From assembly GCA_020137815.1 (NCBI GenBank), contig CM035358.1, positions 5,766,001 through 5,830,000 on the forward strand: DNA of 64,000 nucleotides. Direction: 5' to 3'. The position numbers and the translations under genes were made by a program. Below the pieces are notes generated by a model, which worked only from the letters and a program-made list of their open reading frames with translations, searched no databases and was not told the origin of the DNA. The DNA is from Hormiphora californensis. Lineage: Eukaryota; Animalia; Ctenophora. Positions within the stretch are counted from its first letter, which is position 1; the number at the start of each line of letters is the position of its first letter. This document shows, in pieces, positions 1,842-63,768 of this stretch.

Positions 1842-4800
1842 CATCTGGAAGTGGCGCAGAAAGTTTTCTCAGAGATGACCCGGGATGCACTGGGGACATC
1901 AGCAGAACCACTGTTAATACTGACAAACGGGGCTTTAATAATCTTGCTTCTTTGGAGGGCTTGTAACACCTGTAGGGGGGAATGATAAACTCATGCCGTG
2001 AAATACATAAATTAGGTGTAGGGTAAACCGGGGCAAAATGGTTAACTTTTTACTTAATCGGTTCTCACCCCCGTTTAAAAAAAGATAAGATGAAACAAAT
2101 TATATAGGATTAAAGTTCATTATTTTATCGTTCAAATAAGATAAATTTCAACTCTAGGGACCATTAGGGGAAACTCTAACTGAATGGCATCCCATTAATG
2201 GGATCCCATCAACAGTAAAACTCTAACTGATAATGGACCACAGTGATGGTTCTTTCTCTGTATTCTCTGTGCTCTACCGGGATTAATGATTACAGGAGAA
2301 CGGCTTGAAATATCTCTTAGAGTCTCCGGATGGTTACTCAGGGGACCTAGAGCTAACTTTTGACACCCATGGTTTTACCCCAAGTTAAAAAAATTTAGTC
2401 AGGTTTTTGTTATGATCAGCAACATTTCAACTGCTGATTACACCAAGATGAAAACAGTTTGTGAAAAAGTGACACCTGTTTAGAGGTCGTGTCGAGGCTC
2501 CAAACTGATGAGACAAAAACTGGAACAATTGGGAGAGGTCGATGTAGTTATCGACTCTACTATTACTGTTGATGGGATCCCATTAATGGGATACCATTCA
2601 GTTAGAGTTTCCCCTAATTTACTTAATTAAATATCTAATTTAAAAATTTTGGTAGGCAAAATTGGTACCGGGGCAAAATGGTTAATTGGCCCGTAGCGCC
2701 AAAACTAAGCATTTTAGGGTATATGTTTGTTCATAAGTCATATATAAACCTGGCCATTCCGGAGCGGATTCTATAAGGAAAAATCAATTGGGTCACCCAA
2801 TTAGCCACAATCAGCATACCCATCTTGGCACACACAAAAGACGTCATATTTCACTGGGATTTCACTAAATCGCCCATAACTCCAAAACTAAGCATTTGAG
2901 ACCACATTTTGCTTCATAAGTCATATATAAACATGTCCTTATGAAGTAACATATGGTATAAAATGCTTAGTTTTGGAGTTATAACTCATAAATGGCGATT
3001 TAGTGAAATCCCAGTGAAATATGACGTCTTTTGTGTGTGCCAAGATGGGTATGCTGATTGTGGCTAATTGGGTGACCCAATTGATTTTTCCTTATAGAAT
3101 CCGCTCCGGAATGGCCAGGTTTATATATGACTTATGAACAAACATATACCCTAAAATGCTTAGTTTTGGCGCTACGGGCCAATTAACCATTTTGCCCCGG
3201 TACCAATTTTGCCTACCAAAATTTTTAAATTAGATATTTAATTAAGTAAATAATGGTCCCTAGAGTTGAAATTTATCTTATTTGAACGATAAAATAATGA
3301 ACTTTAATCCTATATAATTTGTTTCATCTTATCTTTTTTTAAACGGGGGTGAGAACCGATTAAGTAAAAAGTTAACCATTTTGCCCCGGTTTACCCTATT
3401 ATGCAGGTTATGTAATATGTAATCTAACTCATGACACCAAATACATAATATGATATAGGTTATGTAATCTAGCGTCGTGAAAAATGTCTAGACTATAACG
3501 AACTAGTCTATTAATAGATCTACAAATAGGGATGATGTTGTTAGGAGATTACAGATCAATCAATCAAACCTACCACGGTGGGTAGATTAAACTTTAAATG
3601 GATTGTTGGTGAATATGCACTAAGTAGACTTACCTCAGACTCTGTGACAGTCCTGATTCTATCTTCTGCTTCAAGGAACTGGTTGATGTGGAAATTTCCC
3701 TCCGATCGATTTGCATTTTCTTCCTTTTTGTCCCATCTGAAATGCAGGATTTAGATTCATGTCTCAACTTTTGAGGGAGGTTGTGGCCATTGGCCAAGAC
3801 GCCAATTCAAGTAAAATAAGAAAAAAGTAACCTGAACTAAGCGTTGTGACATCTGTCAGGCCAATGCTCTGACCACAGTTCTCTCGCGCTCCTATTTGAA
3901 AGAAATGAGAATAGAATAGGGTCAGCTGCTCTGACATTATGATCGCACCTGTCAATGAAGGCATCCAGGATGAGGGCGATGATAACATTGAGGACAATTA
4001 GAACACACACGATCCACCAAATAACGAAGTAGAAAGCAACCCACCATTCCCCTCTCGCGTAGGTAAACGCCTCTGAAAGGATGGGGGTCAGTTTGGAATA
4101 TGGGGTGGGAGCCAAGATAAAAGTTATCATAGGCCAGAGTGTTTTCATCTGTCACAACAATAATGAACTTCTTGGTTACCATGGTTACCATGGTTACCTA
4201 CCTACAATGACGTGCCAGTTGTTAACCACCATCAGGGTATAGAGAGTCACACAGGCAGCGAAGAAGTCATCGAAATTCAGTGAGTAGTAATCTAGAGAGG
4301 AAGAGATAGTATCGAGATAGTATCGAGATTTGACAAGCTTGGAACACAAAAGTGGGGAAGTCTCAGCCACAATCAGTAATCAGTACACAGTACTGAATGT
4401 GGCTGAGAATGTAGTTGAGACTAAGAGACTAAGAGACTTCCCCTGACTAAACAAGTAACTGGTAACTGGTACATTTAATCAGCTTCAGTATCATGTATGG
4501 AAGGCAGCTAAAAGTATGGAGAGGCCAGTTGGGTCCGTCGCTGCCAAAGAGGCCAGACTGATTGTGTATTGATTGAGTACCCCAGCTCTTATCGCGAAAT
4601 TGGGAATCGGAAAAGAGGAAATGGGGGATACCGGATATTTCACCCATGAATCTACTCACCTAGATTCCAATAAGTGCCGCATTGGTCTGCTAGAACTTTG
4701 TTTCCCCTTGTTGCAGTGCGATTGTGAATCTTCTGTGTGACATCCGCAGAGAATAATTCCATTCCAATAATAGCAAAGATATAGGTGAGGGCAAATAGTA

Positions 4801-7800
4801 TTCCTGGAAGAGAGAGATTGTTACTTTAACTAGGAGAGAGAGAGAGAGAGAGATTGTTACTTTAACTAGGAGAGAGAAAGAGAGAATAATTCCATTCCAA
4901 TGATTGCAAAGATATAGGTGAGGGCAAATAGTATTCCTGGAAGAGTTATATAACTGGAAATGGAAGAAAATCACGGATTCCTCGAATTCGGAATTCAAAG
5001 AGTTCAATTATTTAGCCGATTGATGATTAAGTAAATATAACATCTAGACGACTCATAAACAACAGTTCCACAAGAATAACAAGTTATATAAACTCACCTA
5101 GGTAGACCTGCATTTGTCTGATGAGGGTCAGGTAGGTCTGGATTACCACGCGGAGCCTCTTCACCTATAATAATAATACACGGGTATCATATCATGATAA
5201 TATATCTTGCAACCTCAAGTATACGGATACCCAGCTGTCTGGACTCTGGTGCCCCTATGGCCTATAATTATAAACGATTCTATAATCCAAGATTAGCATC
5301 TAAGTTAACATGGTAACAACTCCTACCTGCATAAAGACTCAGTTTCTATGGTAACAACTATGTACCTGCATAAAGACTCGTATAAAGCGGAAACAAATAC
5401 AAAGGTTAATGCTCCGTAACACCGCTATTGCTGTCTCGTCCCTTCCTTCTTTATTGTGGCGTGAGTAAATAAATATCCTGGAAAATTGGGCAACTTTAGT
5501 CGAAAAATATATCCTTGAAAATCAATCACCTTTTCTTTCTATCTTCTCCTCTTTCACTCTCTCTAGTTCTGTTCTGTTTTCTCTCTCTCTCCACACTTCA
5601 GTCACTCTTCAGTCTCTCCAACTTACATGAGCCCTGACAGGAGGACAGTTATTCCCAAATCGTAACAGAAAACAAATGTTTTGAAATACGCTCTCCAGCC
5701 AACTCCTAAGATCCTTAGCACCTGCAGAGGTGGGGTAACCATGGTTACGGTTGTATTTGTTACAGCAAGGTAACTACACTTCACAGTTCACAAGTTACCA
5801 TGTTTACCGGGAGGTTGAAATGTTCCTATACCTGTTCAAGAGTAAAGTAAATTGTGACAAAGATATTCATATAAAGGACCACCTCAGCTCCTTTTCTGAT
5901 TCCCGTGTGTTCGTCTGGTTTCCTTGTCAGCACTGGTATCAGGGCTATTGTGTTCACCAAGGCCAACATGGTTCCAATCATCTGTGAGATAGGTTAGCAG
6001 TTGTTAGCTAGTCTCATTTGTGGAGGGGGCTATGTTACCTGATGCATATCAGGGGCTAACGGGAGGGGGTTTCATGATAAATCATGAAATGAAAAGTTGG
6101 CCACAGCCCTGACAGGTAACAGTGTACTAACAGAGACTAGGGCAATTGAAAATCAGTACATCTATTATACCTACTTCAAATATGCGATGAGTAACGATCA
6201 CTTTGATTCGTGGAATTTCTGTTGATCTGAATCTCGGTAGTTGTCTCTTTTCCCAGTCAGAATAATCCGTTTCTATATCTGTGGGGGATCAGTAGGGCAA
6301 TTAAGCGGCAATTAAATCCGGTTATTAATGATAGTATGGGGGGGGGGGGGTCATCAGGTCATGTGCCCTATCAATTAACATGACTCTCTCCTAATAATCC
6401 TAAATTTGACATGTGGAGAAAAGCCGATAAGTTCAATAGCCGTACGAGTTGGGTCACGGTTGAGCGGACATCGAACAATTGTTTCAGACATGCTGACAGG
6501 AGGAGAATATTAAAATATTAAAATATTAGCCTTCAATAGCCTACAAATATAATTTTACCTAAAAACAATTTAACGAAGTCCTCTCGATCCAAAACGTCCG
6601 TTTGTGCACTGTCATCCAGATGCTTGTAAAGGTATTTCTTATATCGATTATCCATTCTGAATCAAGGAATAAATTTCCGTGAGTAAAATGATTTACATAC
6701 CATGGTAACCATGGTAACACACTCAAAATATCATGGTAACCATGGTAACACACCTGGTTACCATGGTTGCAAACCTGGTTACCATGGTAACACACCTGGT
6801 AATCATGTTAACACACCTGGTAACCATGGGAACACACCTGGTAACCATGGTAACACACCTGGTAACCATGTTAATACACCTGGTAACCATGGTAACACAC
6901 CTGAGAATGTCCAGTACAGAATAAACCGTAGATAGAGCGAGAAATTCAGTTCCGGTAGGAAAGGACGGTCCAGCATCATCCTCATCATGGTCTGGTATAA
7001 TTAAAATCTGGAAATATGAAGGGAGAACTTTAAAATAAGTTGTTCATTATTTCATTTTTATTTCGCCTCTCATTCTTGATTTGATTGGGTTCGCGATCTG
7101 GGTTTGATATTGTACTGGTATAGAAGCTTGTGTATGTAGGTATGCTTCTGTAAATTTCAGCATACCAAGTGTCAATTATTCTCAAATATGTATATCTGAA
7201 ATATCCTTCATTTATGTTGCTACTCAACAAGAATTAAGGGATTCGGAGTATCGATTCCTCTAAGTATCCTCACTATCTCCCAGGTCCCACTCTCCAATCG
7301 GATTCTGCCCAAAATATCCCCAATGCCCACCCTTACCTACCTGATCCACCTCACTGGGTGTGGGCGAAGGCCCCCGGAGATTCTCAGCCTGATCAAATCT
7401 TAAACTCGCATTTAGGCTGGCATTCCAATCAATCGGTCGGGTTAGTTGGGTTTCATTTGTGGGGTGAGTTAGGGTGGCAAAGGCGGCTCGAAGTGCAATG
7501 ACTCTCCTCGATACCATATAACGTACAGAGACCTGTCGAAATTCATCTTTAATTGTTTGTGTTACCATGGAGCAAAAACAGATTGTTACCATGGTGACAC
7601 TATGACAGAAACATATTGTTACCATGGTGACACTGTGACAGAAACCTAGATTGTTACCAATACCATGGTGACACTGTGACAGAAACATATTGTTACCATG
7701 GTGACACTGTGACAGAAACGTATTGTTACCATGGTGATACTGTGACAGAAACATATTGCCACCATGGTTGACACTGTGACCAGTGACAGAATCAGATTGT

Positions 7801-10490
7801 TACCATGGCAACTGAATGCTACCTTGAAGTGTTGCCGGAATTGATTGTAAATCACAGCTAACAGTAGATTCATCAGACCATACGTGCCTGAAAATAGGAG
7901 AGAATTAGGAAAGATGATTTAGACATTTTGAAACTATGAAACCTAATAACACTTTTCAAAAGTATTCCTCTCAGAAAGAGACAGTAATTAACGGGGGAAA
8001 GAAGAAAGAGGGCCCCCGGCCCAAGAAATGTCGGGTGGTCAGAATCCCATCAATTCCTAGAATAACCATTTAAACCGATCCCATGTTACTGTTAGTGCGG
8101 GGAGGACTACAAAAACCGATTCCAACCTGTTTTACGAGTTAAACACTTTTAACTTATAAATGTTTAACTTCAGTGACACTATAAAGGAGAGGTTGTGAGA
8201 AAAATATTTTTTCCCTCAACCTCTCCACTTCTTTTATACTGTCACCAAAGTTAAGCACTTACTTAGCCAGATGAAAACGAAGAAGAAGACAATGTGAAGT
8301 CGGTTAATTTTATATGCCGGAATCATAACATCGGGGTTATTTGCAGTTGTAGTTAGGACGAGAAGGTCCCACATGCTCTTGGTGATGGACCCGAAGTAGT
8401 CATCTCCTTGCTCATCCTGCATGGGGGGAGTAGGGGAGTTAGTAGTCATCTCCCTGCTCATCCTGCGGGGGGGGGGGGGGAGTAGGGGAGTTAGTAGTCA
8501 TCTCCCTGCTCATCCTGCATGGGGGGAGTAGGGGAGTAGGGGAGTTAGTAGAAACATTGCTGCAAGAATCGAGGATCGTGAGTGGGGGCAGCTGCAGGTG
8601 GGGGATAGTGTGGAGTAGAAACATGTTGCTGCAGGGGTGAGTGGGGGCAGCTGCAGGTGGGGGATAGTGTGGAGTAGAAACATGTTGCTGCAGGGGTGAG
8701 TGGGGGCAGCTGCAGGTGGGGGATAGTGTGGAGTAGAAACATGTTGCTGCAGGGGTGAGTGGGGGCAGCTGCAGGTGGGGGATAGTGTGGAGTAGAAACA
8801 TGTTGCTGCAGGGGTGAGTGGGGGCAGCTGCAGGTGGGGGATAGTGTGGAGTAGAAACATGTTGCTGCAGGGGTGAGTGGGGGCAGCTGCAGGTGGGGGA
8901 TAGTGTGGAGTAGAAACATGTTGCTGCAGGGGTGAGTGGGGGCAGCTGCAGGTGGGGGATAGTGTGGAGTAGAAACATGTTGCTGCAGGGGTGAGTGGGG
9001 GCAGCTGCAGGTGGGGGATAGTGTGGAGTAGAAACATGTTGCTGCAGGGGTGAGTGGGGGCTGCTGCAGGTGGGGGATAGTTGGGAGTAGAAACATTGCT
9101 GCAGAGGTGAGTGGGGGCAGCTGCAGGTGGGGGATAGTGGGGAGTAGAAACATTGCTGCTGCAGGGGTGAGTGGGGGCAGCTGCAGGTGGGGGATAGTGG
9201 GGAGTAGAAACATTAAGCTGCAGGGGTGAGAGGGGGGTGAGTGGGGGCAGCTGCAGGTGGGGGATAGTGGGAAGTAGAAACATTGCTGCAGGTGGGGGAT
9301 AGTGGGGAGTAGAAACATTGCTGCTGCAGGGGTGAGTGGGGTCAGCTGCAGGTGGGGGATAGTGGGGAGTAGAAACATTGCTGCAGGGGTGAGTGGGGGC
9401 AGCTGCAGGTGGGGGATAGTGTGGAGTAGAAACATGTTGCTGCAGGGGTGAGTGGGGGCAGCTGCAGGTGGGGGATAGTGTGGAGTAGAAACATGTTGCT
9501 GCAGGGGTGAGTGGGGGCAGCTGCAGGTGGGGGATAGTGTGGAGTAGAAACATGTTGCTGCAGGGGTGAGTGGGGGCAGCTGCAGGTGGGGGATAGTGTG
9601 GAGTAGAAACATGTTGCTGCAGGGGTGATTGGGGGCTGCTGCAGGTGGGGGATAGTGTGGAGTAGAAACATGTTGCTGCAGGGGTGAGTGGGGGCAGCTG
9701 CAGGTGGGGGATAGTTGGGAGTAGAAACATTGCTGCAGAGGTGAGTGGGGGCAGCTGCAGGTGGGGGATAGTGGGGAGTAGAAACATTGCTGCTGCAGGG
9801 GTGAGTGGGGGCAGCTGCAGGTGGGGGATAGTGGGGAGTAGAAACATTAAGCTGCAGGGGTGAGAGGGGGGTGAGTGGGGGCAGCTGCAGGTGGGGGATA
9901 GTGGGAAGTAGAAACATTGCTGCAGGGGTGGTGGGGCAGCTGCATGTGGAGGATAGTGGGGAGTAGAAACATATTGCTGCAGGGTGAGTGGGGGCAGCTG
10001 CAGGTGGGGATAGTGGGAGTAGAAACATTGCTGCAGGGTGAGTGGGGGCAGCTAGCAGGCTGGGGATAGTGGGGAGTAGAAACATTGCTGCAGGGTGAGT
10101 GGGGGCAGCTGCATGTGGGGATAGTGGGAGTATAAACATTGCTGCAGGGTGAGGGGGGCAGCTGCATGTGGGGATAGTGGGAGTAGAACATTGCTGCAGG
10201 GGTGAGTGGGGGCAGCTGCAGGTGGGGGATAGTGGGGAGTAGAAACATTGTTGCAGTGGTGAGTGGGGGCAGCTGCAGGTGGGGGATAGTGGGGAGTAGA
10301 AACATTGCTGCAGGGGTGAGTGGGGGCAGCTGCAGGTGGGGGATAGTGGGGAGTAGAAACATTGCTGCAGGAGTGAGTGGGGGCAGCTGCATGTGGAGGA
10401 TAGTGGGGAGTAGAACATTGCAGCACGGGTGAGACGAGAGACGCAAATACAGTGCAGACAGCCAAGACAGACAGTCAAAACAGACAGTCC

Positions 10491-10524
<34 letters not shown>

Positions 10525-13268
10525 CCCTACCTTAACGGAATCACTGAACACAATATGTGCACTAAGTCCAAACACAAAGATATTCAACGCCAGCACCACC
10601 AGCACCCCCAACACCTCCGGCATGGACTTCTTGATGGCGTTTAGCATTTTCTTCATAATGCTATTTCTCTGGACCATGTAGAATGTTCTGAGTACCCGGT
10701 AAACCCTTAGTTCAGACAACCTCGTCCCTGTGTGAACACGAATTGTTTAATGGATATAATCGATATTATATTATAGTTGTTGTGTGGTGTTCGTGAACAC
10801 CACACAACAACTATATAATATCGGTCAAACTGGATAAGTTTCACATGTGTGTACGTGTGCATTTGGGGGGTGACAACAGTAGAAAATCCGACTTTAATAC
10901 CACTTTCAGACTGTTATAGCGGTTCTATACCGTTTAGTAGCATGCGATTCTGAAAGTGGTATTATTTCCCACTCTCAGCTCTGAATTCTAAAATACCAGC
11001 AGACGATATCTCTCTAGTAGTTTCCATTTTCATAATCGCGCAATCTTCTAAACGATTATAACACCACTATTATATATAATAGAACCGTAGCAGAACCGCT
11101 AAATGGATTCGGGATACGATAAAGTAAGCTGTAAAGTATAATATAGGACATAGGTAAGGTTATAGAGTATACAGGTAAAGTATATAGTCTAGACTTTAAT
11201 CTGGAAGGGATTCCTGGTAAAGACTAAAGTATATAGTAGTCTAGACGACATCTTTATATGTGGTATACAAATACAGATCACATACATTGATCTATCCAAT
11301 ATCACTACACCACGCCGCGACGGGGCAGATATCATGTTTCAGAGTTCTTTCACTGCCAATTTTTGTTTGCAACGGAAAGGGGGGCTCTCGCTACCCCTCT
11401 TGTAATATTTGATACCTTGGTGAGAATCGCATGAAAACTAGTATGAGAGAAAAGTGTGTGTGTGTAATTTGACCTGATGGACCTAAACCTGCTTCCGGCT
11501 ACCTGTTCAATCACTGCTAAATGGATGGAAACACCTTCTCAGCAATCAACCCTCGCAACAAAACAGATAAACTTGTCGTTTTTATTGTCAGTTACTATCC
11601 CGTTGATTTTTCTAGATTGTATGTCTGTCGCGAGTTAGTCAGTTAACTCAATTTTGAGTCAGTCAGTCAGTCAGTCAGTCAGTCAGTCAGTCAGTCAGTC
11701 AGTCAGTCAGTCAGTCAGTCAGTCAGTCAGTCAGTCAGTCAGTCAGTCAGTCAGTCAGTCAGTCAGTCAGTCAGTCAGTCAGTCAGTCAGTCAGTCAGTC
11801 AGTCAGTCAGTCAGTCAGTCAGTCAGTCAGTCAGTCAATCAATTAGTCAATCACTCGGTCAATCACTCAGTCACTCTTTACTACTATTTTACTGTCATGT
11901 TAGAGTATTAAATCTCTTCACTTTCTATTTTACAGGATAGTGTCATTAGGTACCTTTTTTTCATCCATATTCTACATAGTCCCCCTTCCTAGTCAGCTTC
12001 CCTTTTCTCCTCGGCTGCGTGTCATCTTTTTATCAGTTTTTGGGAGATGTTGCTTCCCCACACCTCGACCACCATCGTCAATTTTATTTCTAGGATGGAC
12101 CTCACCTCAGTTCCCTCTTATATCTGCCACGGCCCCTTATTTCATGGCAGGCGCCATGCATGTTTCGCACCATCAGCTGCAATCATTCGGATAATTGGTT
12201 GCATATTCCTCATGTAATTTATTCTTCCCGCCAGAATTCATTTCTTGTGATCCCCCCCCTAGGTGCCCTCTAGGTGCCCCCCTAGGTGCCCTCTAGGTGC
12301 CCTCTAGTCTGGGAGATGGTCACTTGCCCTGCGGTGTTTAATTTATAGTCATAGTTTTGTTTATAAACATTTATGGGTCAGCGTGGGAACTGGGAAGGGG
12401 ATATCATTTTGCGTTACCAAGAGGGGAGGTGCCATTTTCACCCTCACCATCACCTGCACCAGTTTCATTTAACTGGCATATTTTATTCATGGAGTAGGTT
12501 GGTAGTCTGAGGCTGGATAGCTGAGTACAGCTGAGTACAGCTGTCAGGGGCTGCTTTAGGGAGGTATAGCAGGCTCTCCCTGTCCGGGGTTTCTTTTTTG
12601 TGGTTTTGTTCTCACCCTCACTAACACCGATCCGAATACGGGTTTCATTCGCAGGGCATCTCTCATGTGTGAGAAGGAGGTAATGTTCACACACCTACCA
12701 TATAACCCGTACATTTTACAGGATCATATTTTATTTTTTTTCAATAAATCACAGACATATATCCCCATTTTTAGGTTTCGTGGATTGAAGCCCAGTCCTC
12801 ACACATTTCACATCCACTTTTTATTTTTCTTTTTTCTTTTTTACTTTTCATCTTGTATTGGTAGTAGTTTCGCTTGGCTTAGGGTGAGTCATATTACGGG
12901 TCAGTATAACCCGTACCGAGTAAATTCAGGGTGACCCACAGGACGGGATGACCCGTACTGTGAGCCATCCATATAATGTTGGCATACCATGCAGTCAGCT
13001 CACAAGAACATACTTGCTGTTCAGCACGCACCTTCAATCATTACATCAGCTTGCTAACCAAGTCTTGCCTTCCTTGCGTAAAGAGTCGACCAATGATTCC
13101 CTTCTGGCCTTTTAGTTAGTGGGAAGGTTGGACGGAGGTTTCTTCTAGTGTTCTGCCTAATTAGGCGGCTCTTAGTGTTGTGGGGCTAGGTTGGGATGGG
13201 GGATGGTAAATTGTTCCTTTGGTTGGTCTTCAGTATTCATTGGTCGGCTCTGTTAACCCTTCTTCATC

Positions 13269-13350
<82 letters not shown>

Positions 13351-16300
13351 TTCCCTCTCTCCTTCCTTTTCCCTAACCCCTGTGGCCATTATACTCAACT
13401 GCACGAACACTCAACAACACGAACAACATACGGCGCTCACACCTTTACATTCATGAACTATAAAACGTAGCCTCACGAGCATTGACCTTGCCAGCTTCAT
13501 CCCTGACCCTATCTACATCTGTGCTGGCCGAGCGCATTAAGGTTGTGCCGCCAAACGCTATGCCAAAAAGTTTGTTTGATTTCATACTGCAACTACCAGA
13601 TGATTAGGTAGAGTACCAGTGATTGGGTGCCCGTACTTGCAGTATACCGGACCTTGACACCGGGGTCAAACAAATGGCCGTGAAGTTTAATATCTGTCAA
13701 ACCATGGCACATACATGGCCAGAATACATGTGTGTACAAGGAGTGACAAATGTTAATGCGGAGAAGACACGAAAAAAAAAAAAAAAAAAAAAAAAAAAGA
13801 TATCATGTTTAAATGAAGGGTGAGAAGGGAATTTGGGGAAAAATTCAGTTATAATATAACTTGTTGAGTAAGGGGGAAGAGTGTGACACTCTTCCCCCTT
13901 ACTCAACAAAATATAACAGGATCTAACTAAACTTACCAAGGAAGGCAAGAAAGAAGACAAGATAAAGAACGTTCACAATGCAGTATGCCAACAGCCAAGG
14001 AGATTTTAATATCGATCTGAGGAAAGAGAAATAAAAACATATCAGATCTATACTGCAGTAGCAACATGTTGCTGTTTCTAATTCTGTAATCTGTATTGTA
14101 TTAGGAGCTGTAATTTCATATCTCGATCCGACTTCTGTTGCTGATACACTCTTGTCTGTCTTATACCACTTACTTGTCAGCTGTTTTCCATCGTGCAATG
14201 AAATCCAGGTAAAAGGTCAACAGACAGAGGAACTCTACAGAGTGGGTGACTCCAAAGGGAAGTTCAAATCGTCCATCGTGACCGGCTGTCACATTACTAA
14301 AATCTGAAAAAAAAATTAGTGGAAATCTTCTAGGAGATGATGCCGACCCAAGAACAGGAACCGACCGAATTAAGTAAACAGCCAATCAGAACTCGTTATT
14401 TAGGTCACGTTACTGGTTATCAGCCAATCAGGGACCAGTATTTCCTAATTCGGTCGGTTCCTGCCCTAGAACTGTAGAACTGCAATATAATAGTATTCAT
14501 TCAGCAGACAGCTGCCTGGCACAATATTCTGTCTTCTAGTGCCGGCATGAGCACGATATGGTTTTCATTATCAATTTAGACAGAGTTGTAGTCAGAGGAC
14601 CTATAAAACAGCCGTTTAGTTTGCAAGAGAAAGATCTTGCTTTAGGTGAGAATGCATTCTTCTTTCTCTTGTAAACTAAACGGCTGTTTAAAATACCATC
14701 GTGCTCACGCTCGAATATTCCCACCTAAAGTTTAGTTTAGAATGTTCGATAGAATATGCTTCCAAAAGGGAGTGAGGGTAATTTATAAATACACGTTCAA
14801 CTCGGGTTCAGCCCTTCCTGTATGGCGGCGCCATACCCCATTAATTGATTCGACAGGGCGCTAAGATGGGGTCTGCGGCGCCACACAGGGCCCTTCAACC
14901 TTTGAGAGATAGTATAGCTTCTTGGCTTTGTAGGCTCTGGTATATTATATGGTAGGCTCTGTATATACAAGGTGGCCCATAAATTATGAGGCCGGGGGAC
15001 GAGCTGTACCTCCGAAACGGTGATAGTTGTGCAAAAACAAACTACGGGAACATGCTGGAACAATTCCTTGGTAACTTTTTGCTAATTTTTAGTTTTTTAT
15101 TCAAAAGTTCATTTTTCATTCATGAACTTTTCACGCGTTCATTAATGAACTGAGGACTCTAATTTACCGAGAGTAAGCCATTTTGTTTGGGTTGAATTTA
15201 TCTTTCCAATAAGCACAATGAAAATCAAATTAAAGCACCAGGTCACATGGCAGTTGAGAAAATGCACATGCATGAATTTGGCTCTTCCTGCGACTTTCAA
15301 TCAGCTGTATCACGGCTACCTTTTATTCAATCTTTTTAAAAATTTGGGTGAAGATCGGATAAGCAAAGATCTTTGCTCACAAGAAAAATCAAGGTCAAAA
15401 CTGAAAGTTCATTTTTGAGTTTTGGTAGTTCATTCCACTCATTCAGGAACCAACATCCCTAAAGTGATAAAAAGTGATTGGTTTTGTTTGGCCCATACCC
15501 TGCAATGATAGAGAGGTGTAAAAACACGTTTCCGGGCTAGTTAGTAGGTGTCCATGTGATCATGATGATATCTGACACCTCTTCTGAGCCATAATCAAGG
15601 GATTTTCTCGAATTCAAGCATGTGATTTGGGTTATCTGTGATTGGTATCGTGCAGCAATGTTGAGAGATCTCATAGCACCTCGAAAATTATGATTAGCTC
15701 AATGAAATGAGTTGATTTTAGATCGAAAATGGTAGTTTAGTTCATTTTGACGTCTGTTTTGATCTCTTCTATCATAAATCAACACATTTCATTGAGCTAA
15801 TCATAATTTTTGAGGTGCTATGAGATCTCTCAACATTGCTGCACGATACCAATCACAGAAAACCCATTTCATATGCTTGAATTCGAGAAAATCCCTTGAT
15901 TATGGCTCAGAAGAGGTGTCAGATATCATCATGATCACATGGACACCTACTAACTAGCCCGGAAACGTGTTTTTACACCTCTCTATCATTGCAGGGTATG
16001 GGCCAAACAAAACCAATAACTTTTCATCACTTTAGGGATGTTGGTTCCTGAATGAGTGGAATGAACTACCAAAACTCAAAAATGAACTTTCAGTTTTGAC
16101 CTTGATTTTTCTTGTGAGCAAAGATCTTTGCTTATCCGATCTTCACCCAAATTTTTAAAAAGATTGAATAAAAGGTAGCCGTGATACAGCTGATTGAAAG
16201 TCGCAGGAAGAGCCAAATTCATGCATGTGCATTTTCTCAACTGCCATGTGACCTGGTGCTTTAATTTGATTTTCATTGTGCTTATTGGAAAGATAAATTC

Positions 16301-19089
16301 AACCCAAACAAAATGGCTTACTCTCGGTAAATTAGAGTCCTCAGTTCATTAATGAACGCGTGAAAAGTTCATGAATGAAAAATGAACTTTTGAATAAAAA
16401 ACTAAAAATCTGCAAAAAGTTACCAAGGAATTGTTCCAGCATGTTCCCGTAGTTTGTTTTTGCACAACTATCACCGTTTCGGAGGTACAGCTCGTCCCCC
16501 GGCCTCATAATTTATGGGCCACCTTGTATTCACAATCTAATCTAGTTAGTTAGATATCAAGGTTGGAGCTCTTTCTAGTAAGATCCTTGATAATGATATT
16601 CAAGATATGATTAAATGCTTATATTTTGAATTCTGAACTCAAACTAAGCAATCGCACATCTTGTAAATTCAACACCTCGAGTTCCCCAGAAAAACACTAT
16701 TATGCCCCACTATTATAGAGAGTCCCAGCCCCACTAGAGAGTCAGAGTGCTATAAAATACCCAGCTGCAGCGTTTAAAATAAAAGGTTGAAGGTTCCCCA
16801 GAAATTAAAAACATGATTATGCCCACTATATGCTTGCTAGGTAAATAACAGGTTGCACTGTTTAAAGTTGTTTAAAACTTAAATTCTAGGTCTGTTACTA
16901 ATTTCAATTTTTGTCTTCTTGGTAGAGGGTAACCACCACTTGACCCACGCATAATCATATACATTTAGTAATGAAATTACCCCTCCGCACAAGCTCACAG
17001 TGCAACATGCAATTATAGGCTGTCTGGCGCCGCCGACCCTATCTGAGCATTGGGGTAAGGCACAGCCATACAGATTATACATAGGGGTGACTTCGTAACC
17101 AAACCATTTATATTGTTCAAGTCTATTTTTGTTCACGAGACAGTTTGAATTTAACTCTAAATATTTTTGATATTGACAGCCCTGCTTCAATTCAAAATCT
17201 GTTGCTTGATCGCTCTTACCCCCTTCAAAGTACAGGGTGTCCCACTGTCTTTGCATCACCTGTGATTTTTGGTCATGACCGGGCTCCATTAAACTAACCA
17301 AAACTCATCGAAAAATTGGTCAAAATGGTTCTACCAAAAACCAGTGTTCTAGAGAATTGTCTGGCGAACATTTTGGTGGCAAGATTGACGTTTCAAGTCT
17401 TACCAATCGTCAGATATATCGTCGTAAAGTCAAAAGTACGTGTTCATGAAATCCGACCGGGGTTGACGTTTTGAAAAATTCACAAATGCAAAGTTGCTCG
17501 GATCACATTGCATCACTCATAAGAGTTGTAGGAAATTGTCTAGCGGTCATTTTGGTACCCGGGTTTTTGTCCTAGCTCAATGTTTAGAGTGTCTTATGAC
17601 TGTCTAAAGACGAAATTCAACCAGCATTTTTGAGGGGATCACGTGTCATCAACAAATGGGTAAAATGATTTGAAATTTACAAGAGCTTCATTGGAATCGT
17701 CTAAGGTTCATTTTGATACCATGATTTTTTCCATGGCTCTATGTTTTAGTTGCGTTATGACTGTAGGAACATGAAAATTGTTCTATGCTGAGTCTTAGTT
17801 GGTATCGGCTCACAACCCCTAATTAGGTGGCTCGGTGTCGTGTGTAATCCCATGATAATCAGCACATATCGTCTCAATTTCATCTAGACACTTGACAGGG
17901 TTGTTATGACGATTTGGCAAGGCCCCTGTTAATGTGTAGGATACGCAAGTGGTCTATCTCAACCCTATCATACACTAACATGTTATTCAAGCAGCAATGA
18001 GCTTCATAACAGGGCAAAATGCAATGAGATACCTGAGACCACTTTTGGAAAAATTCCAGTTCTGACAGTCATAAGACACTCTAAACATTGAGCTAGGACA
18101 AAAACCCGGGTACCAAAATGACCGCCAGACAATTTCCTACAACTCTTATGAGTGATGCAATGTGATCCGAGCAACTTTGCATTTAAGAATTTTTCAAAAC
18201 GTGAACCTCGGTCGGATTTCATGAACACGTACTTTTGACTTTACGACGATATATCTGACGATTGGTAAGACTTGGAACGTCAATCTTGCCACCAAAATGT
18301 TCGCCAGACAATTCTCTAGAACACTGGTTTTTGTTAGAACCATTTTGACCAATTTTTCGATGAGTTTTGGTTAGTTTAATGAAGCCCGGTCATGACCAAA
18401 AATCACAGGTGATGCAAAGACAGTGGGACACCCTGTATATTGTTTGATCGAATTCCAATTCCCCCTTCAAAGTATATTGTTTGATCGACTTCCCCCCTTC
18501 AAAATATATTGTTTGATCGCTCTTATCTATACCTGATGATATGCTGAAAGAAGATGGTTTCTCTATCAATGCCAATAACAGAAGAACAGTGCAAATTGAA
18601 TAGTAGGCCACTCGGTAGAGGGTAGTCTGCATGAATCGATAGATCTGTATCGAAACTGGATCTATCCTGAAAATGGTAAGTAATGGTTATAGTTTGAGTT
18701 GAATTGTAACATGGCTATGATCATGATTCATGGTCAATTATCTAATTTAGATCTCATAGCCAGCCTGATAAAACAGCCCGGAGTCGAGTTGAACTACAAA
18801 ATATCATTGCACTTGCCAGCGCTAATATTAACTTACCTGTGACAAAGGGATTTGTAGGCCAGGGCATTTTCGATGTAAACAACCGCCCTTAGAATTAGCT
18901 CACTGGTTCCGAATGATTGCATATCATTAACACTTGATCATAACTGGTAACTGATAACTTGTAAAGTAGCTGAGGGACCTGCTTTATCAAGATAGACGGG
19001 TCAGATATAAACACAATATAATCGATGGTACGATCTTCAATTGTCAAATGGAAATTACTGGTTCTAAGGACCGCGTTACGAACATTCAT
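1842..19089 (-). CDS. TPCN2: Two-pore channel, TPC2-like (multi-exon)
   Basis: GT-AG exons at approx. 18837-18887, 18533-18666, 14174-14303, 13937-14016, 10531-10727, 8263-8416, 7823-7887, 7341-7532, 6901-7007, 6558-6656, 6175-6277, 5832-5981, 5627-5721, 5366-5477, 5098-5164, 4660-4804, 4202-4291, 3949-4071, 3634-3736, 1842-1969. They join to give AVVYIENALAYKSLCHRIDP, ELPFGVTHSVEFLCLL, pore 1 LLVLTTTANNPDVMIPAY, MNLLLAVIYNQF, RRVIALRAAF and pore 2 NFDDFFAACVTLYTLMVVNNW, all recognisable TPC2 motifs. Start codon (19089?) and last exon are uncertain. Confidence 0.92.
2021..3396. mobile_element. Foldback element with TA flanks
   Basis: TA-GGGTAAACCGGGGCAAAATGG...CCATTTTGCCCCGGTTTACCC-TA; long inverted arms, left arm interrupted by a nested element. 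Confidence 0.88.
2167..2614. mobile_element. Nested Harbinger/Tourist-like MITE
   Basis: ~50-bp TIR GGGGAAACTCTAACTGAATGG, flanks TTA/TAA; absent from the mirror arm of the host. Confidence 0.8.
6700..6902. repeat. 21-bp repeat at a TPC donor
   Basis: Unit GGTAACCATGGTAACACACCT. Confidence 0.9.
7560..7812. repeat. ~33-bp repeat
   Basis: Unit TTGTTACCATGGTGACACTGTGACAGAAACATA. Confidence 0.9.
8420..10425. repeat. ~59-bp G-rich minisatellite filling a TPC intron
   Basis: Unit GAGTAGAAACATGTTGCTGCAGGGGTGAGTGGGGGCAGCTGCAGGTGGGGGATAGTGTG, about 30 copies with variants. Confidence 0.95.
11656..11836. repeat. (AGTC)n microsatellite
   Basis: Perfect tetranucleotide run. Confidence 0.97.
14355..14463 (+). 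mobile_element. 109-bp hAT-type MITE
   Basis: TIR CAGGAACCGACCGAA; 8-bp TSD CCCAAGAA/CCCTAGAA. Confidence 0.88.
14968..16526. mobile_element. Foldback/MITE, Tc1-mariner type
   Basis: TA-CAAGGTGGCCCATAAATT...AATTTATGGGCCACCTTG-TA; ~750-bp near-perfect inverted arms (identical mirror ORFs at 15218 and 16276). Confidence 0.9.
17233..18435. mobile_element. MITE with ~370-bp TIRs, Tc1-mariner type
   Basis: TA-CAGGGTGTCCCACTG...CAGTGGGACACCCTG-TA. Confidence 0.9.
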
Positions 19090-22722: not shown

Positions 22723-24351
22723 CTACCTACTCGTCTGTGGTGCACAAAGGAAGGAAAATAAACAGGGGAACAGCACATCAGGTGGGTAAGCTGATATGTG
22801 ATACACAAGACTGGTGTCATATTACAGTGGGTGATATGTGAAACAAAAGACAGCTGTAACAGCTCCTGGCCAACATGGTCAGATCGAACACTGAACACGG
22901 GTATTGCCCATTGGGTCATGATGAATGATCATCTGATGGACGGCAACAGAGCCGAGGCGCCTGGTACCCACACTCCTGCTACAACAATGTTGACACGGCC
23001 CGGCGACGGACAAACATAGTGAGTTATCTCACACAAATACATACTGGACGGTAGATTACAAGCCAAATACATACTGGACGGTAGATTACAAGCCAAATAG
23101 ACGGATTTAAAATGGGTGCGAAATAAATAATGATTTCTACACTTACAGTACAATACAAAATTCCCAACTTCAAATTATTAAAATGTTTTCAACAGTCTTT
23201 TTTAAAGTTTTTTGACATTCAATGCCCTCTCGTAGAGTTGATCTTTTGTTAAATACAATGTATCCGGCGCTGTAATGTATAACTCTCTTTTAGCTGCATA
23301 GATCAAGAGATACAGTGAAGGGTGTCACACTGTCTTTGTACATACATGGGTTCCTGCAGGGAGGGGTAAACCAATCAGATCTCTGCAGAGTGGGGTTAGC
23401 CAACCAGAGCAGGGGATTTCAGCCAATCAGAGCTCTTATTTCTTTGTGTAGATATTATCAGAGTCCGATTGTTTTGGGTTGTTCCGTTTCTTTGGTCGTG
23501 TTGCGTCACTTTCTGACATCCCATCCGTGGTGCTGTACCCTGAAATACAATGGTTTAGTACAGAGACAGATGGATAGATAGTGCAGATGCAGAGAGACAG
23601 ACATACAGATTACAGACAGACAGACAGAGAGAGAAACAGACAGAGTACAGCCAAGGAGACGGATTCAGACCAGAAGGCATACAGACAGATAGACGGACAG
23701 GCTGTATTACAGTCTGTATTACAGACAGACAGACAGATTACCTTTACCTTTGACAGACAGATAGATGGAGATAGACATGCAGACAGAGAGACAAGAAGAC
23801 AGACAGATAGATAGACAGACAGTCTGCGTTACCTGATAATCGTGCCGCTTGTCGAGGTTTACTGACTTTACTGTTCGTCCTGGGAGGGTGTTTCTCCACA
23901 GTTGTTCTAACATAATCTGAGTGGGGAAATTAGTTTAATTGATATTTTAGCTGTCAACTTGGTTACTATAAGTCACCCCTATAAAGGCTGGGGAACGTAA
24001 CCATTGTGCTACATCCCTTCATCTCAGCCCCTCACGGGGCTGAGACAGCCTCTACGAAGAAGAAGAAGAAGTCACCCCTATTACGGGAGCTCGCGTTTAT
24101 GAGTAATTTCATAACCAAGCTGTCAGAATAATGTCTGAACTTGCGAGGAAGCTTCAGGGTGATGTCCGACCGCTCTCTTATCGATAAAGCGGTATGGCGA
24201 TGTCTGACAATTATAGTTGATGGTGCGGCTTTCACTTTGATACTAATCTGATGATTGAGTAGAGCTGATGATTGAGTAGAGCTGATGATTGAGTAGAGCG
24301 TAGTCTTAGTGCCAGAATTTACTTAAGTATTTGTTGGCTGGAGCACCATGG

Positions 24352-24848
24352 CACTATGGGGTCAATTCCGGTTAGCTCGCGAAATGCCGTGTTTTTGGCC
24401 CCAGAACGCGCAACAGAGCTTTAAATCTCGACCCTGTTGCGCGTTTTACACATAAAATTGGCGCTGGAAAGCGATTTTTTAGCATAAATACTGCAAAAAG
24501 TCAAAGTTCGCTTGCCCGCACCCTCTTAAATTTGGCTACAGACTATCCAGTACAACCCCCTGATCATTCTGGTACCAAATATGTCCACGCTCCGAATACT
24601 TAGCGAAAAAAATCTGTTGCATTTTAAAGTTTTCAAATGGCTCTCATTCTCTTATTTTGCAGATTATAGATCCAAGTTTGGTCTCATTTTGTGTGCCAAA
24701 CGATGGACCACATGTTAGACCCGTTTTCATAGCCATTAGACATCACACGCATTCATAGCGGCGTCTGTTTTGGGTGGCATTTCCTGCGCTAAAAACGGCA
24801 TATTTTTGCGAGCCTAACCGGAAAAACGCGCGTTTTGACCCCATAGTG
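24352..24848. mobile_element. Non-autonomous Transib-type element A
   Basis: Termini CACTATGGGGTCAA...TTGACCCCATAGTG, flanked by perfect 5-bp TSD CATGG. Confidence 0.85.
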
Positions 24849-25018
24849 CATGGGGGATAATTACTAATTAAATTAGTATGGTCATAAAATCTGATACATG
24901 TCTCTCCCTCTCTATCTCTTGTTGTTCATAAACTGACGGGGAAACTTGTAACGGGGAAGTTGTTTCAAACAACTTAACCTTTCCCCCGTTACAAATACCT
25001 TGTTTGATACCTCCACTA

Positions 25019-25321: not shown

Positions 25322-52835
<27,514 letters not shown>

Positions 52836-53400: not shown

Positions 53401-54468
53401 CTAAAACACGACCATTTCTTCCAACAATTTCTTCATGTAACTCATATCTAATTGCATCCACACTACCATATTACCCTTCTCTCCCTCATACCTGACCTCT
53501 CCAAACCTCTCTGAACCTCTATCAGTGTTGACATGGACTCTACTGAAAGAAAGATCTTCAACTTTACTTTCAGGATGGGCCATCATAAGTGGTATAAACT
53601 GGTCTGCAAACACAAAGCCTCTGCCTTCATCTCTTAGCTGTTGGAGCCATGGAGTCATAAGGACGGCCTCAAACATATTATAGTACGGAGAATTGCCTAG
53701 TTTTCCCGTGTCTCTCACTTCATCAATATCACTGAAAGATAGTGTATTGGCCAGACATGCGTCCCAGGGCATAATATTGACCGTCGTGGAAGTTGAAAAC
53801 TTCTCTAGTACAAGTTTAGTGGCCAAAGGATCTTCGAAGGTGTTGAACTCGGCGTAAGGGGTGACATTTCCCTTGGAGGTAGAGGTCCCCATAATCCACA
53901 GATCCTTGACGAGTTGAGGTAAATATGGGCAAATTGAGAGGGCGTTTGCCAAGTTAGTCAGGGGACCAATAGCAACCAAACTGATTTCACCCGGATTCGC
54001 AGAAACAATGTTACAAATAGCACTAGCAGCATCCAGATCGCCCGTTTTAACAGGAACGTCGTCAGGAATAAGGTCTGGCCGGTTGTTCAAACCGTCTGCA
54101 CCGTGGATAATAGTTGTATCGTTGTTCAAGACTTCCTTCAAGTCTACAGCGTGGCTTGCTCCCTGGTAAATTGGAATAGAAGAGTTTCCTAACATGTTGA
54201 GGAGTCTCGCGGCATTCTTTGTAGACTGTTCAAGGGGGACGTTTCCAAAGACAGTTGTCACGGCAACCAATTCAAAGTTCTTCGGGTGAGAAAGGAAAAG
54301 TCCCAGTGCCATTGCATCGTCTGTGCCAGGGTCCGTGTCCAAAATAACCCGTCTAACAGGTGAACGTGAAGCAGTCATCGCTAAACGGCTCAGGCAAGTA
54401 ATGAACATAGTGGACATAAGAAGAAACAACACAGTTGAAACAAGCCTTCCGATCTGTAAGACCATCAC
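53401..54468 (-). CDS. Inosine/uridine-preferring nucleoside hydrolase family protein, single exon, hydrophobic N-terminus
   Basis: 355-aa uninterrupted ORF with DTDPGTDDA (DxDxxxDD), TTVFGN, HGADGL, AIGPLTNLA and GNVTPYAEFN motifs. Confidence 0.95.
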   Translation of the reverse strand: MMVLQIGRLVSTVLFLLMSTMFITCLSRLAMTASRSPVRRVILDTDPGTDDAMALGLFLSHPKNFELVAVTTVFGNVPLEQSTKNAARLLNMLGNSSIPIYQGASHAVDLKEVLNNDTTIIHGADGLNNRPDLIPDDVPVKTGDLDAASAICNIVSANPGEISLVAIGPLTNLANALSICPYLPQLVKDLWIMGTSTSKGNVTPYAEFNTFEDPLATKLVLEKFSTSTTVNIMPWDACLANTLSFSDIDEVRDTGKLGNSPYYNMFEAVLMTPWLQQLRDEGRGFVFADQFIPLMMAHPESKVEDLSFSRVHVNTDRGSERFGEVRYEGEKGNMVVWMQLDMSYMKKLLEEMVVF

Positions 54469-55068
54469 GAAGACGAAATTTTGAGCTTTTTTTAATTTTC
54501 ACGCGTCCGACGTGTTTTAAAAAATCAACTTTGCTTTGAAATTTCGAACGCCGCGCTCAATTTATCTGAATTGTAGAACTAGGTGCGCGCGGTTAAAGAA
54601 ATGCGGTTCATTTGTAATGCATTCGCTCCCCCCGTTAACGTTCCATTGGACTCCAATTTGGAGAACTTAGCTGGAACTGCAGTTGTTCACGAAAAACTTA
54701 GACACTTAAATAAAGAGCAAGATTTTAATATAGGAAACAAAGCAAAAAACAAAAACACAGGTTACCTCGCATATCGCTAGAATTAGAAAACTAAAAACAA
54801 ACCCAATTATATTATGTATATAACCTGTCTCAGCTGTCAGAGCATTAGCCTGACAGTGTCTCAGTCTCACACTGCAGTCCCAGCTCGTAAACTTGCTCGC
54901 AAACTTTTACCATCTTGTCTTTACTTGTTATGTTCTCACCCTCCCTTTACATTTGTTTCGGGGGCGGGGCACGCGAAACACAGTCTAGCTAGGCAAGTCT
55001 TTACTACGTTTTCCAAGTTTTGCTCATTCACAATGTAAAGCAAACTCTGAAGTTTCCCTGGCCTGCAG

Positions 55069-61839: not shown

Positions 61840-61996
61840 CTGAAAATTAATGTTTAAATTGTAGTATGAGATGGAAAGTATTTGATTGTGAGAATGTGCT
61901 TGTTATTCGTGCGTAAATTTATGGGCTTGTAATGTCTCAGCATAAGATTATATTTGAGAGAAGATCGATAGAGAAAAGGCTGATTATAAGAGGCCG

Positions 61997-62501
61997 CACT
62001 ATGTGGTCAAAACGCGCATTTGTCCGATAGGAATCCTCCGTTTTGAGGGGTTTTGCGCGATTTTGTTAGGCGCTTTCAGGGAACGTGCACGCTTGCGTGT
62101 GTTGGCAAACACCCTGGAAATTGTGTAGCAGTTGTAGGTAATCGTCTAAAGGTCATTTTGCCACCCATAACTTGGCTGAAAGTGCGGCAGGTTTTGGACA
62201 GCACGGCATCAAAGTTCGTCCTATAGCCCAAAAACTGGCTTCTGTTCAAAGCGCAACCTAAATTTTGGTATCAAAGGAAAGCTAGGGGGCTAGAGATTAC
62301 TATGCAACCTTTCCACCGCAACCGGTCCGATGCGGTCATGTATTAAATGCGACATTTATGCTAAAAAAGCACTTGTCAGCGCTGGTTTTACACGTAAAAA
62401 CGCGCAACGAGGTTGGATCTTGGTCAAAATTGAGCGTCTACTGCGCGTTTTCTATGAAAATCACTAGATCTCGCGAGCCTATCGGACATGACCACATAGT
62501 G
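61997..62501. mobile_element. Non-autonomous Transib-type element B (diverged relative of A, opposite orientation)
   Basis: Termini CACTATGTGGTCA...TGACCACATAGTG, perfect 5-bp TSD GGCCG; shares internal blocks (GTTGCGCGTTTT, TTTTTTAGCATAAAT) with element A. Confidence 0.85.
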
Positions 62502-63123
62502 GGCCGATGAATTAGATAGAATTCGGATAGATAGACATGGGTGGAATCTCAAATTTTGACAAGTAACTAAATTGTCATTTCACTTGATCGCTCTTCGTAT
62601 GTATTTGAAATCTTGCCTAATAATGTAACACATAATTTGCGGGACCCCAACTTTCGAGTTTTAATAGCTGTTGTCGTTAATAGAAATTAAAAGAGACATT
62701 TTGACAAATTTTGGTTTTAAAACTTTATTCCTCCATTTTCCCTATATTTTCCTGATAATTTGCTTGACCAAGTATTTTCTAGTGACAGTCACGGTCATTT
62801 GTTTCCGCTCTCTTTCTTTGTAACTCTCTTCTTTTCTCTGTCTATCGCTCTCTCTTTGTGTATTACCCTCTTTCTCTCACTATATTGCCCCTATCATTTA
62901 GAGAGTCATGTCGGTCGCACTCAAAGTGGCATTTATTGGTTGTGGAGCGTTAATGCTACTCCTGATCATCATGATAGGACTACCCTTCCTGGTCCTCTAC
63001 TACGTCTAAGGTAACTTGTATATCCATATTTGGTCATCTCCATTCTCCATATATGGTCATATCTAACCACTCTCTCCACACACGTACACCTCTTGAAGTA
63101 ATGTCACACACCCACCCCACACT

Positions 63124-63768
63124 ATGTTGCTGCACATTTCGTTGCTCATCCTCCTCCTCCTACCTCATGACGTCATCACCTCTGAACACCAATCCCAGAA
63201 CCTCCTGGACTATCCCGTCATCTTGTCCTCCCAACGGACCGGGATCCACCGGACTCTCACAACCCCCGCTACAATATCCAGCACCCCCAGACTAACCCTT
63301 ACTACATGGATCTACCTCCGGGGTCACTGCCCAGAGGAGGGGAATGAGAGATGTGCGGTGATTGGGAGAGTGAATGATAGAGGAGAGAGTCAGACTCCGA
63401 CACTGTTTCTCAACAAGGAAGGAAAGTTAGTGTTCGCTTCAAGAATTCAGCCCGGAAAAGCAGCCGATTTGGTGGTATCAGGATTCACCCTTCCTCTCCA
63501 CCAGTGGCTATCAGTAATGCTGACACTGAATGGTGGAACTGTTGAAGTGCTGGTTAGGGATTCCAAAACCGCGGAGCTGGGCAAGATGGGGTATCAGTTT
63601 GGGTCTGATTTCCAGTTGGTATACGGCAGGTATGAGTGGGTTCTGGGTGGGGATCTTTGGCATCTGAGTGTGGACGGAGCGATGGGTCTCACTGATGTTT
63701 ATGTGGACAGTGTGGTGGATGCAGGGCTGATCAAGTGGCCAAACCCAATACACTCCATCTTCAAACTT
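63124..63768 (+). CDS. First coding exon of SEL1L3-like protein (signal peptide plus LamG/concanavalin A-like domain); gene continues beyond window
   Basis: Signal peptide MLLHISLLILLLLP, then TLTTWIYLRGHC, TPTLFLNKEGKL, FTLPLHQW, LNGG and WVLGG, which I recognise as resembling the SEL1L3 N-terminal domain. Ends at a G/GTAGGT donor. Confidence 0.7.

What the first reader, a model, noticed from the sequence alone, without database searches (positions are those of the whole stretch)
24352..24848. Transib-type element with RSS-like ends asymmetric by exactly 11 bp (12/23-like rule)
Seen: both ends begin CACTATG (two mismatches from the V(D)J RSS heptamer CACAGTG) with a 5-bp TSD CATGG. The left end reads CACTATG-GGGTCAA-TTCCGGTTAG and the right end CACTATG-GGGTCAA-AACGCGCGTTT-TTCCGGTTAG, so a conserved second block sits 11 bp (one helical turn) further in at one end. 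Known: Transib transposase is the relative of the RAG1 core, makes 5-bp TSDs, and RSS spacers of 12 and 23 differ by 11; I recall similar asymmetry being noted in some insect Transibs. Inference: a RAG1/Transib-like transposase with a one-turn/two-turn end-pairing rule has been active in this genome, probably an early-branching animal.
Basis: partly seen in the sequence, partly recalled or inferred. Interest (0 to 1): 0.85.

Follow-up and report, generated by a model that had tools for sequence, protein, structure and literature searches.

The report
Comb-jelly mini-transposons with unequal ends
Two small, gene-less jumping elements in what is likely a comb-jelly genome have ends offset by 11 bases, a trait shared by their many copies; they are likely moved by a Transib enzyme related to the antibody-gene recombinase RAG1, but similarly unequal Transib ends are already published and a true pairing rule is untested.

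Summary
Observation confirmed and strengthened. Element A (24352-24848) has a 5-bp duplication, 14-bp perfect inverted ends starting CACTATG, and a second block 11 bp further in at one end. A second element, B (61997-62501, 261 of 512 aligned columns identical), has the same ends and the same 11-bp offset. Contigs from two species show both are high-copy families that keep short and long ends. One individual lacks both insertions, which proves the 5-bp duplications. So the offset is not a private deletion. The host is likely a ctenophore. The elements work like non-autonomous Transibs, but no transposase was found, so membership is unproven. The 12/23 analogy is partial: there is no A-rich nonamer, the spacings are 8/19, and the extra 11 bp are sequence-conserved and carry a motif repeated near the other end. 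Unequal Transib ends are in print for insects (2005) and for the Transib subgroup nearest RAG1 (2022). In that 2022 paper's supplement I count 10-bp offsets in three ctenophore Transibs. Verdict: new member of a known kind, and a good substrate for testing end pairing.

The parts
24352..24848 (.). Element A, 497-bp non-autonomous Transib-type transposon; longest open frame 75 aa
   Evidence: high copy and empty site
24347..24351 (+). Left target-site duplication of A (CATGG)
   Evidence: empty-site contig in run X5 skips 502 = 497 + 5
24849..24853 (+). Right target-site duplication of A
24352..24365 (+). A, short end: heptamer CACTATG plus 7-bp G-rich block
24367..24375 (+). A, short end: second block (positions 16-24 from the terminus)
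24835..24848 (-). A, long end: 14-bp TIR identical to the short end
24824..24834 (-). A, long end: 11-bp insert carrying the motif AACGCGC; 10 of 11 identical to B's insert
24814..24822 (-). A, long end: second block (positions 27-35)
24405..24445 (.). A, subterminal inverted pair of the AACGCGC motif near the short end (24405 and 24439)
61997..62501 (.). Element B, 505 bp, diverged sister family in the opposite orientation; longest open frame 72 aa
   Evidence: high copy and empty site
61992..61996 (+). Left target-site duplication of B (GGCCG)
   Evidence: empty-site contig in run X5 skips 510 = 505 + 5
62502..62506 (+). Right target-site duplication of B
61997..62031 (+). B, long end: TIR 61997-62010, 11-bp insert 62011-62021, second block 62023-62031
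62478..62501 (-). B, short end: TIR 62488-62501, second block 62478-62486
62399..62449 (.). B, subterminal inverted pair of the AACGCGC motif near the short end (62399 and 62443)

Best explanation
A and B are gene-less, high-copy, polymorphic cut-and-paste elements with 5-bp duplications and a family-wide 11-bp offset between their ends; they are likely moved in trans by a Transib transposase encoded elsewhere, which would favour pairing one short with one long end. Shown: boundaries, duplications, empty sites, and the offset in two diverged families and two species. Inferred: a transposase dimer cuts at the CAC termini, holding the heptamer and the next 7 bp at each end. A second DNA-binding domain (the NBD-equivalent reported in Transibs) would reach the second block, which lies one helical turn further in at the long end and so on the same face of the helix, as RAG1's NBD dimer does with 12/23 signals. 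Insertion into GC-rich targets gives the 5-bp duplication. By analogy with three published ctenophore Transibs, the long end is likely the 5' end. Odds: Transib-type partner about 0.85; a real short-plus-long preference, given that, about 0.55-0.6.
For: Two elements with 261 of 512 columns identical (interior 131 of 320) keep 29 of 35 long-end and 18 of 24 short-end bases and the same offset. Contigs of 4 runs on A and 4 runs on B list 8 and 10 indel rows, the largest 4 and 2 bases, none of 11. Only +1/-1 variants fall in A's long end, in 3 contigs. Relatives about 81-83% identical to B cover its ends with 1-2 gaps (records 9 and 10). Empty sites show 5-bp duplications. Kapitonov and Jurka 2005 name Transib as the only eukaryotic DNA-transposon superfamily then known with 5-bp duplications (PMC1131882). 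Ctenophore Transib genes exist (PMC9435367); three complete end pairs in its supplement have, by my count, 10-bp offsets, a G-rich stretch after the heptamer and a TTA-R-G core within 1-3 bp of where A and B have TTAG/TAGG. ProtoRAG prefers an asymmetric end pair in assays (PMC8289069).
Against: No transposase was found: no Pfam transposase hit among the 288 of 336 window ORFs of 55 aa or more that passed a low-complexity filter, and no genome is held. No A-rich nonamer. The insert is conserved 10 of 11 and repeats a subterminal motif, which fits an extra binding site as well as a spacer. In BbeRAGL the NBD is minor and the terminal 15-17 bp dominate (PMC7204232; bioRxiv 2023.08.20.553239). 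RAG1 without RAG2 loses the asymmetry requirement (PMC4840297). TSD and TIR features are labile and should not override transposase evidence (bioRxiv 2026.08.26.747230). The loose-end tables were truncated (56 and 69 rows not shown), so rare symmetric copies are not excluded.
Confidence: 0.5

Rival explanations
1. Same Transib-type partner, but no length-counting rule. The enzyme needs only the terminal 14-16 bp plus end-specific sites, and the 11-bp insert is one of three copies of a binding motif, so the ends differ in content rather than in phase.
For: Insert 10 of 11 identical between A and B against 131 of 320 in the interior. 7 of 9 window occurrences of AACGCGC (either strand) lie in A and B, at matching places. 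CTT/TR2-type binding makes the nonamer dispensable in BbeRAGL.
Against: The second block is conserved at both ends of both families, and the offset stays at 10-11 bp across A, B and three published ctenophore Transibs whose inserts share no sequence. That points to length selection.
Confidence: 0.3
2. The partner is a RAG-like two-gene transposon (RAG1L plus RAG2L), not a single-gene Transib.
For: CACTATG is the ProtoRAG heptamer and starts the coral FcoRAGL 5' end, whereas the published ctenophore Transibs start CACAGTG. RAG2 is tied to the asymmetry rule.
Against: RAGL ends have an A-rich region after the heptamer; A and B are G-rich there, like Transibs. The main text of PMC9435367 lists ctenophores under Transib homologs, not under RAGL.
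Confidence: 0.08
3. The partner is a CACTA/EnSpm, Chapaev or other transposase, and the RSS likeness is superficial.
For: The ends begin CACTA. Element A alone can also be parsed as a 499-bp element with G...C ends and a 3-bp duplication. End features are labile.
Against: B's flanks do not allow the longer parse (G on both sides), and other insertions of A have A before the CAC and A or T after the GTG (loose ends). Empty sites show 5 duplicated bases. That CACTA/EnSpm/Chapaev duplications are 2-4 bp is recalled, not from a call.
Confidence: 0.1
4. The 11-bp difference is a private deletion or an assembly artefact of this copy.
For: The insert in A is a short palindrome, a possible deletion hot spot.
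Against: Same offset in B. Independent insertions with other flanks carry the short end without gaps (X14 record 9). No stable hairpin is predicted: z-scores 0.05 to 1.05 for 4 of 4 ends.
Confidence: 0.02

Closest known systems
Ctenophore Transibs MleTransib_2823, MleTransib_3931, PbaTransib_0868 (Tao et al. 2022, PMC9435367; whole main text and supplement parts 8-10 plus passages read, figures not held)
   Same: Likely the same phylum; CAC heptamer, G-rich next bases, second block starting near position 14-20 at one end and one turn further in at the other; 5-bp duplication in PbaTransib_0868.
   Different: They start CACAGTG, have a 10-bp offset (my count by eye) and encode a transposase. 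A and B start CACTATG, have 11 bp, are gene-less and share no extended end sequence with them. Their placement in Subgroup I is my inference from the C-terminal CCGHC motif in the Mnemiopsis proteins; the figure was not seen.
Transib5, Transib2_AG, TransibN1-N3_AG with RSS12/RSS23-like ends (Kapitonov and Jurka 2005, PMC1131882; passages read)
   Same: 5-bp GC-rich duplications, CAC heptamer, about 11-bp end asymmetry, non-autonomous members.
   Different: Those have an A-rich nonamer-like block at 12/23; A and B have a TCCGRTWRG block at 8/19.
ProtoRAG / RAGL-B (PMC8289069, PMC7204232; passages read) and PflRAGL-A (bioRxiv 2023.08.20.553239; passages and section 14 read)
   Same: CACTATG heptamer (ProtoRAG); conserved bases next to the heptamer; bipartite asymmetric ends (27/31 in ProtoRAG, 10 bp in PflRAGL-A); 5-bp duplications.
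   Different: A-rich TR2 and RAG1L/RAG2L genes, none of which is present here.
V(D)J 12/23 recombination signals
   Same: CAC start, 5 of 7 heptamer bases, 11-bp difference with rare plus or minus 1 variants.
   Different: No nonamer, shorter spacings, conserved instead of variable spacer; no functional rule shown.

Membership tests
Transib superfamily | 5-bp target-site duplication | tested here: met
   2 of 2 elements, each with an empty-site contig
Transib superfamily | TIRs starting CAC with a CACAATG-like heptamer | tested here: met
   CACTATG at 4 of 4 ends, 6 of 7 to the consensus given in PMC1131882
Transib superfamily | GC-rich target sites | tested here: inconclusive
   3 of 5 and 5 of 5 G+C, but only two sites
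Transib superfamily | Mobilised by a RAG1-core-like DDE transposase on an element with the same ends | not testable with these tools
   No genome held; no transposase family among 288 window ORFs; pattern scans found no partner
12/23-type signals (RSS; Transib5, Transib2_AG, TransibN1-N3_AG) | About 11-bp length difference between the two ends, fixed in the family | tested here: met
12/23-type signals (RSS; Transib5, Transib2_AG, TransibN1-N3_AG) | A-rich nonamer 12 and 23 bp from the heptamer | tested here: not met
   2, 2, 3, 5 of 9 matches; the block starts 8 and 19 bp after the heptamer
12/23-type signals (RSS; Transib5, Transib2_AG, TransibN1-N3_AG) | Spacer variable in sequence | tested here: not met
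   Insert 10 of 11 identical between A and B
12/23-type signals (RSS; Transib5, Transib2_AG, TransibN1-N3_AG) | Efficient cleavage only of a short/long pair | not testable with these tools
   Needs the enzyme and an assay
RAGL / ProtoRAG transposons | CACTATG-type heptamer and 5-bp duplication | tested here: met
RAGL / ProtoRAG transposons | A-rich TR2 right after the heptamer | tested here: not met
   G-rich at 4 of 4 ends; TR2 described
RAGL / ProtoRAG transposons | RAG1L and RAG2L genes on the autonomous element | not testable with these tools
   A and B are gene-less; no autonomous copy in hand
CACTA/EnSpm, Chapaev (CMC) | 2-4-bp duplication (lengths recalled) | tested here: not met
   5 bp in both elements; the 3-bp parse of A fails for B and for A's other flanks

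The most novel reading that the evidence does not exclude
A still-active ctenophore transposase of the RAG1 lineage strictly pairs one short with one long end by counting one helical turn, using a non-A-rich second block. A 12/23-type rule would then operate in the earliest-branching animal lineage, either without RAG2 or through an unreported ctenophore RAG1L-RAG2L transposon with ProtoRAG-type CACTATG ends.
Probability: 0.2. Interest if true: 0.75.

Novelty: new member of a known kind. Interest (0 to 1): 0.37.

Why it matters
Whether the 12/23 rule came from the Transib ancestor or arose after RAG2 was captured is debated (PMC4840297, PMC8355894, bioRxiv 2023.08.20.553239). Unequal ends as such are published. 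What this adds is two strongly diverged, abundant, polymorphic families, present in two species, that hold the offset at one helical turn, plus a conserved insert motif. That is evidence of selection on end architecture and implies a recently active enzyme. Once the autonomous copy is found, the rule can be tested directly with a basal-animal transposase.

Tried and rejected
Whole genome: none held, so no genome-wide census. Pattern scan of metagenome contigs gave 6 loci with gaps other than the 2 or 13 expected; the two read (L003, L004) are bacterial chance matches, and L004 looks like a palindromic assembly of one gene; the other four were not read. Prokaryote genomes and viral contigs: 0 matches. 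No further copy of the ends in the window; the one extra 2-mismatch hit is within chance. A third CAC...GTG pair at 48678-49946 (11 of 14, duplication CTCTC) was judged chance and not followed. The pair at 15214-16280 has no duplication and lies inside a larger inverted repeat. No Rfam match in A. No hairpin signal at the ends. The nucleoside hydrolase search did not name the host. Earlier-findings look-ups by sequence and by place were empty. The Pleurobrachia genome paper is not held, and Repbase-type catalogues could not be searched, so these families may already be catalogued; paper searches showed no description of them in their listings. No search with a published Transib protein was run, so the partner stays unidentified. 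Expression was not examined.

Full report
Observation. The element is as described. CATGG flanks a 497-bp element at 24352-24848 whose first 14 bases are a perfect inverted repeat starting CACTATG. Behind it, a second block matches between the ends best at an offset of 11 (10 of 12 bases; next best 7). Such TIR-plus-duplication pairs at 12 of 14 identity or better occur twice in the window, against once in 100 approximately shuffled windows. A 10-of-12 block match arose in about 0.2% of 100,000 shuffles of each long end.

Element B, 61997-62501, 505 bp, lies in the opposite orientation with a GGCCG duplication. It aligns to A at 261 of 512 columns, and at only 131 of 320 in the interior. It keeps 29 of 35 long-end and 18 of 24 short-end bases and the same 11-bp offset. 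Offset scans across the two elements gave no clean peak, so the blocks have diverged in sequence while the spacing has not.

Family evidence from sequencing runs. Of 22 runs listed, contigs of X1, X5 (organism A, two samples), X7 (organism B) and X14 (seawater) were laid on A (147, 184, 666 and 12 records). Contigs of X5, X7, X11 and X14 were laid on B (226, 123, 66 and 1). In X5, summed depth is 130-141 in A's flanks and 2,323-59,258 inside, and 37-77 in B's flanks against 16,544-210,865 inside. The tool warns that these are not copy numbers, but both elements are clearly abundant. X5 holds a contig across each empty site, skipping 502 and 510 bases with 5 bases fitting either side. That proves the 5-bp duplications and shows both insertions are polymorphic. 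The indel tables (8 and 10 rows) have nothing longer than 4 bases. In A's long end only a one-base loss (2 contigs) and a one-base gain (1 contig) appear, giving offsets of 10 or 12 in a minority. Other insertions with different flanks begin exactly at the CAC, with the short end ungapped (X14 record 9). Relatives about 81-83% identical to B cover its ends with 1-2 gaps. Limits: these are contigs, and the loose-end and piece tables were cut, so rare symmetric copies could be missed. X1 may be the window's own source; the empty sites come from X5.

Host. A mitoguardin exon (55739-56062) has 6 hits. The best named one is from the ctenophore Bolinopsis microptera (74%), against 47% for Anopheles; the other four are unnamed. 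The window is therefore likely a ctenophore other than Bolinopsis. A dispersed 125-nt repeat beside A resembles one I recall from Pleurobrachia; that is memory only.

Coding capacity. A and B have no open frame over 75 aa. No transposase family was hit among the 288 of 336 window ORFs scanned. No genome is held, and pattern scans of metagenome, prokaryote and viral collections gave only chance matches or nothing. The partner enzyme is unidentified.

How far the 12/23 analogy goes. The difference of 11 with rare plus or minus 1 variants is RSS-like. But the 12/23 slots match the nonamer consensus at only 2, 2, 3 and 5 of 9, and the conserved block (TCCGRTWRG) starts 8 and 19 bases after the heptamer. 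The extra 11 bases are not a free spacer: they are 10 of 11 identical between A and B and carry AACGCGC. Seven of that motif's 9 occurrences in the window lie in A and B: in the long end, and as an inverted pair about 54 and 88-97 bases inside the short end. The insert may thus be a binding site.

Mechanism. Most likely a Transib transposase supplied in trans cuts at the CAC termini and inserts into GC-rich sites with a 5-bp stagger, as HzTransib does (PMC4840297, passages). The pairing step is inferred: a second domain would reach the block one turn further in at the long end, as RAG1's NBD dimer accommodates 12/23 (bioRxiv 2023.08.20.553239). For: the offset stays at 10-11 across unrelated insert sequences, and ProtoRAG prefers asymmetric pairs (PMC8289069). 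Against: RAG1 alone loses the rule, and CTT-based binding can make distal sites dispensable. I put the full model at 0.5, Transib without length counting at 0.3, another transposase at 0.1, a RAGL partner at 0.08 and a private deletion at 0.02.

Comparison with print. Kapitonov and Jurka 2005 (PMC1131882, passages) describe five insect families with RSS12/RSS23-like ends, three of them non-autonomous. Tao et al. 2022 (PMC9435367, whole main text) report 6 ctenophore Transib-like proteins and state that all Subgroup I Transibs have asymmetric TIRs. From its supplement I count, by eye, 10-bp offsets with the long end at the 5' side in MleTransib_2823, MleTransib_3931 and PbaTransib_0868; PbaTransib_8175 has only a 3' end. 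The figures, including the subgroup tree and TIR alignment, are not held and may bear on how close these are. A and B share that architecture but start with the ProtoRAG heptamer, followed by Transib-like G-rich bases rather than the A-rich TR2 of RAGL ends. A 2026 preprint (10.64898/2026.08.26.747230, passages and section 20) warns that end features should not override transposase evidence, so I file these as Transib-type with membership unproven. PMC4411706 and PMC8355894 were seen as passages. Paper searches listed no description of these families, but repeat catalogues could not be checked.

Verdict. Real, family-level and recently mobile; a new member of a known kind, useful as a test substrate. 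Interest 0.37.

Noticed in passing
window 14960-16534, 17226-18442, 43285-45627: Long inverted-repeat elements with TA-containing termini and CAGGGTGTCCC- or CAAGGTGGCCC-type ends, resembling Tc1/mariner MITEs (family label recalled). The last contains a foldback at 43658-44841 that is related to 14960-16534.
   Followed up: no
window 2019-3398: Element with 148-nt perfect inverted arms containing a second one with 263-nt arms at 2612-3256.
   Followed up: no
window 14341, 19119, 24988, 26541, 33599, 34735, 61415 (and inverted copies): Dispersed 125-nt repeat with 12-bp inverted ends; one copy lies 140 bp right of element A.
   Followed up: no
window 53404-54498 (-): Intronless nucleoside hydrolase ORF (PF01156). 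The two closest hits (84%, 78%) are unnamed and the taxon-labelled hits among the best 120 are bacterial: a possible horizontal-transfer candidate, untested.
   Followed up: partly
window 3840-10746 (-), 26847-28792 (-), 35835-36581 (+), 55240-58978 (-), 63097-63885 (+): Exons of an ion-transport channel, a Rap-GAP, an ephrin-receptor-like cysteine-rich protein, mitoguardin and a LamG-like protein.
   Followed up: partly
records X11-6 (1323 bp), X11-4 (767 bp), X7-21 (822 bp): Longer contigs that match only parts of B at about 80-88%; they could be longer relatives nearer the autonomous element. Their sequences were not retrievable.
   Followed up: no
L004 1-4818: Metagenome contig that is largely one long inverted duplication of a bacterial receptor-like gene with many frameshifts; likely an assembly artefact.
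   Followed up: partly
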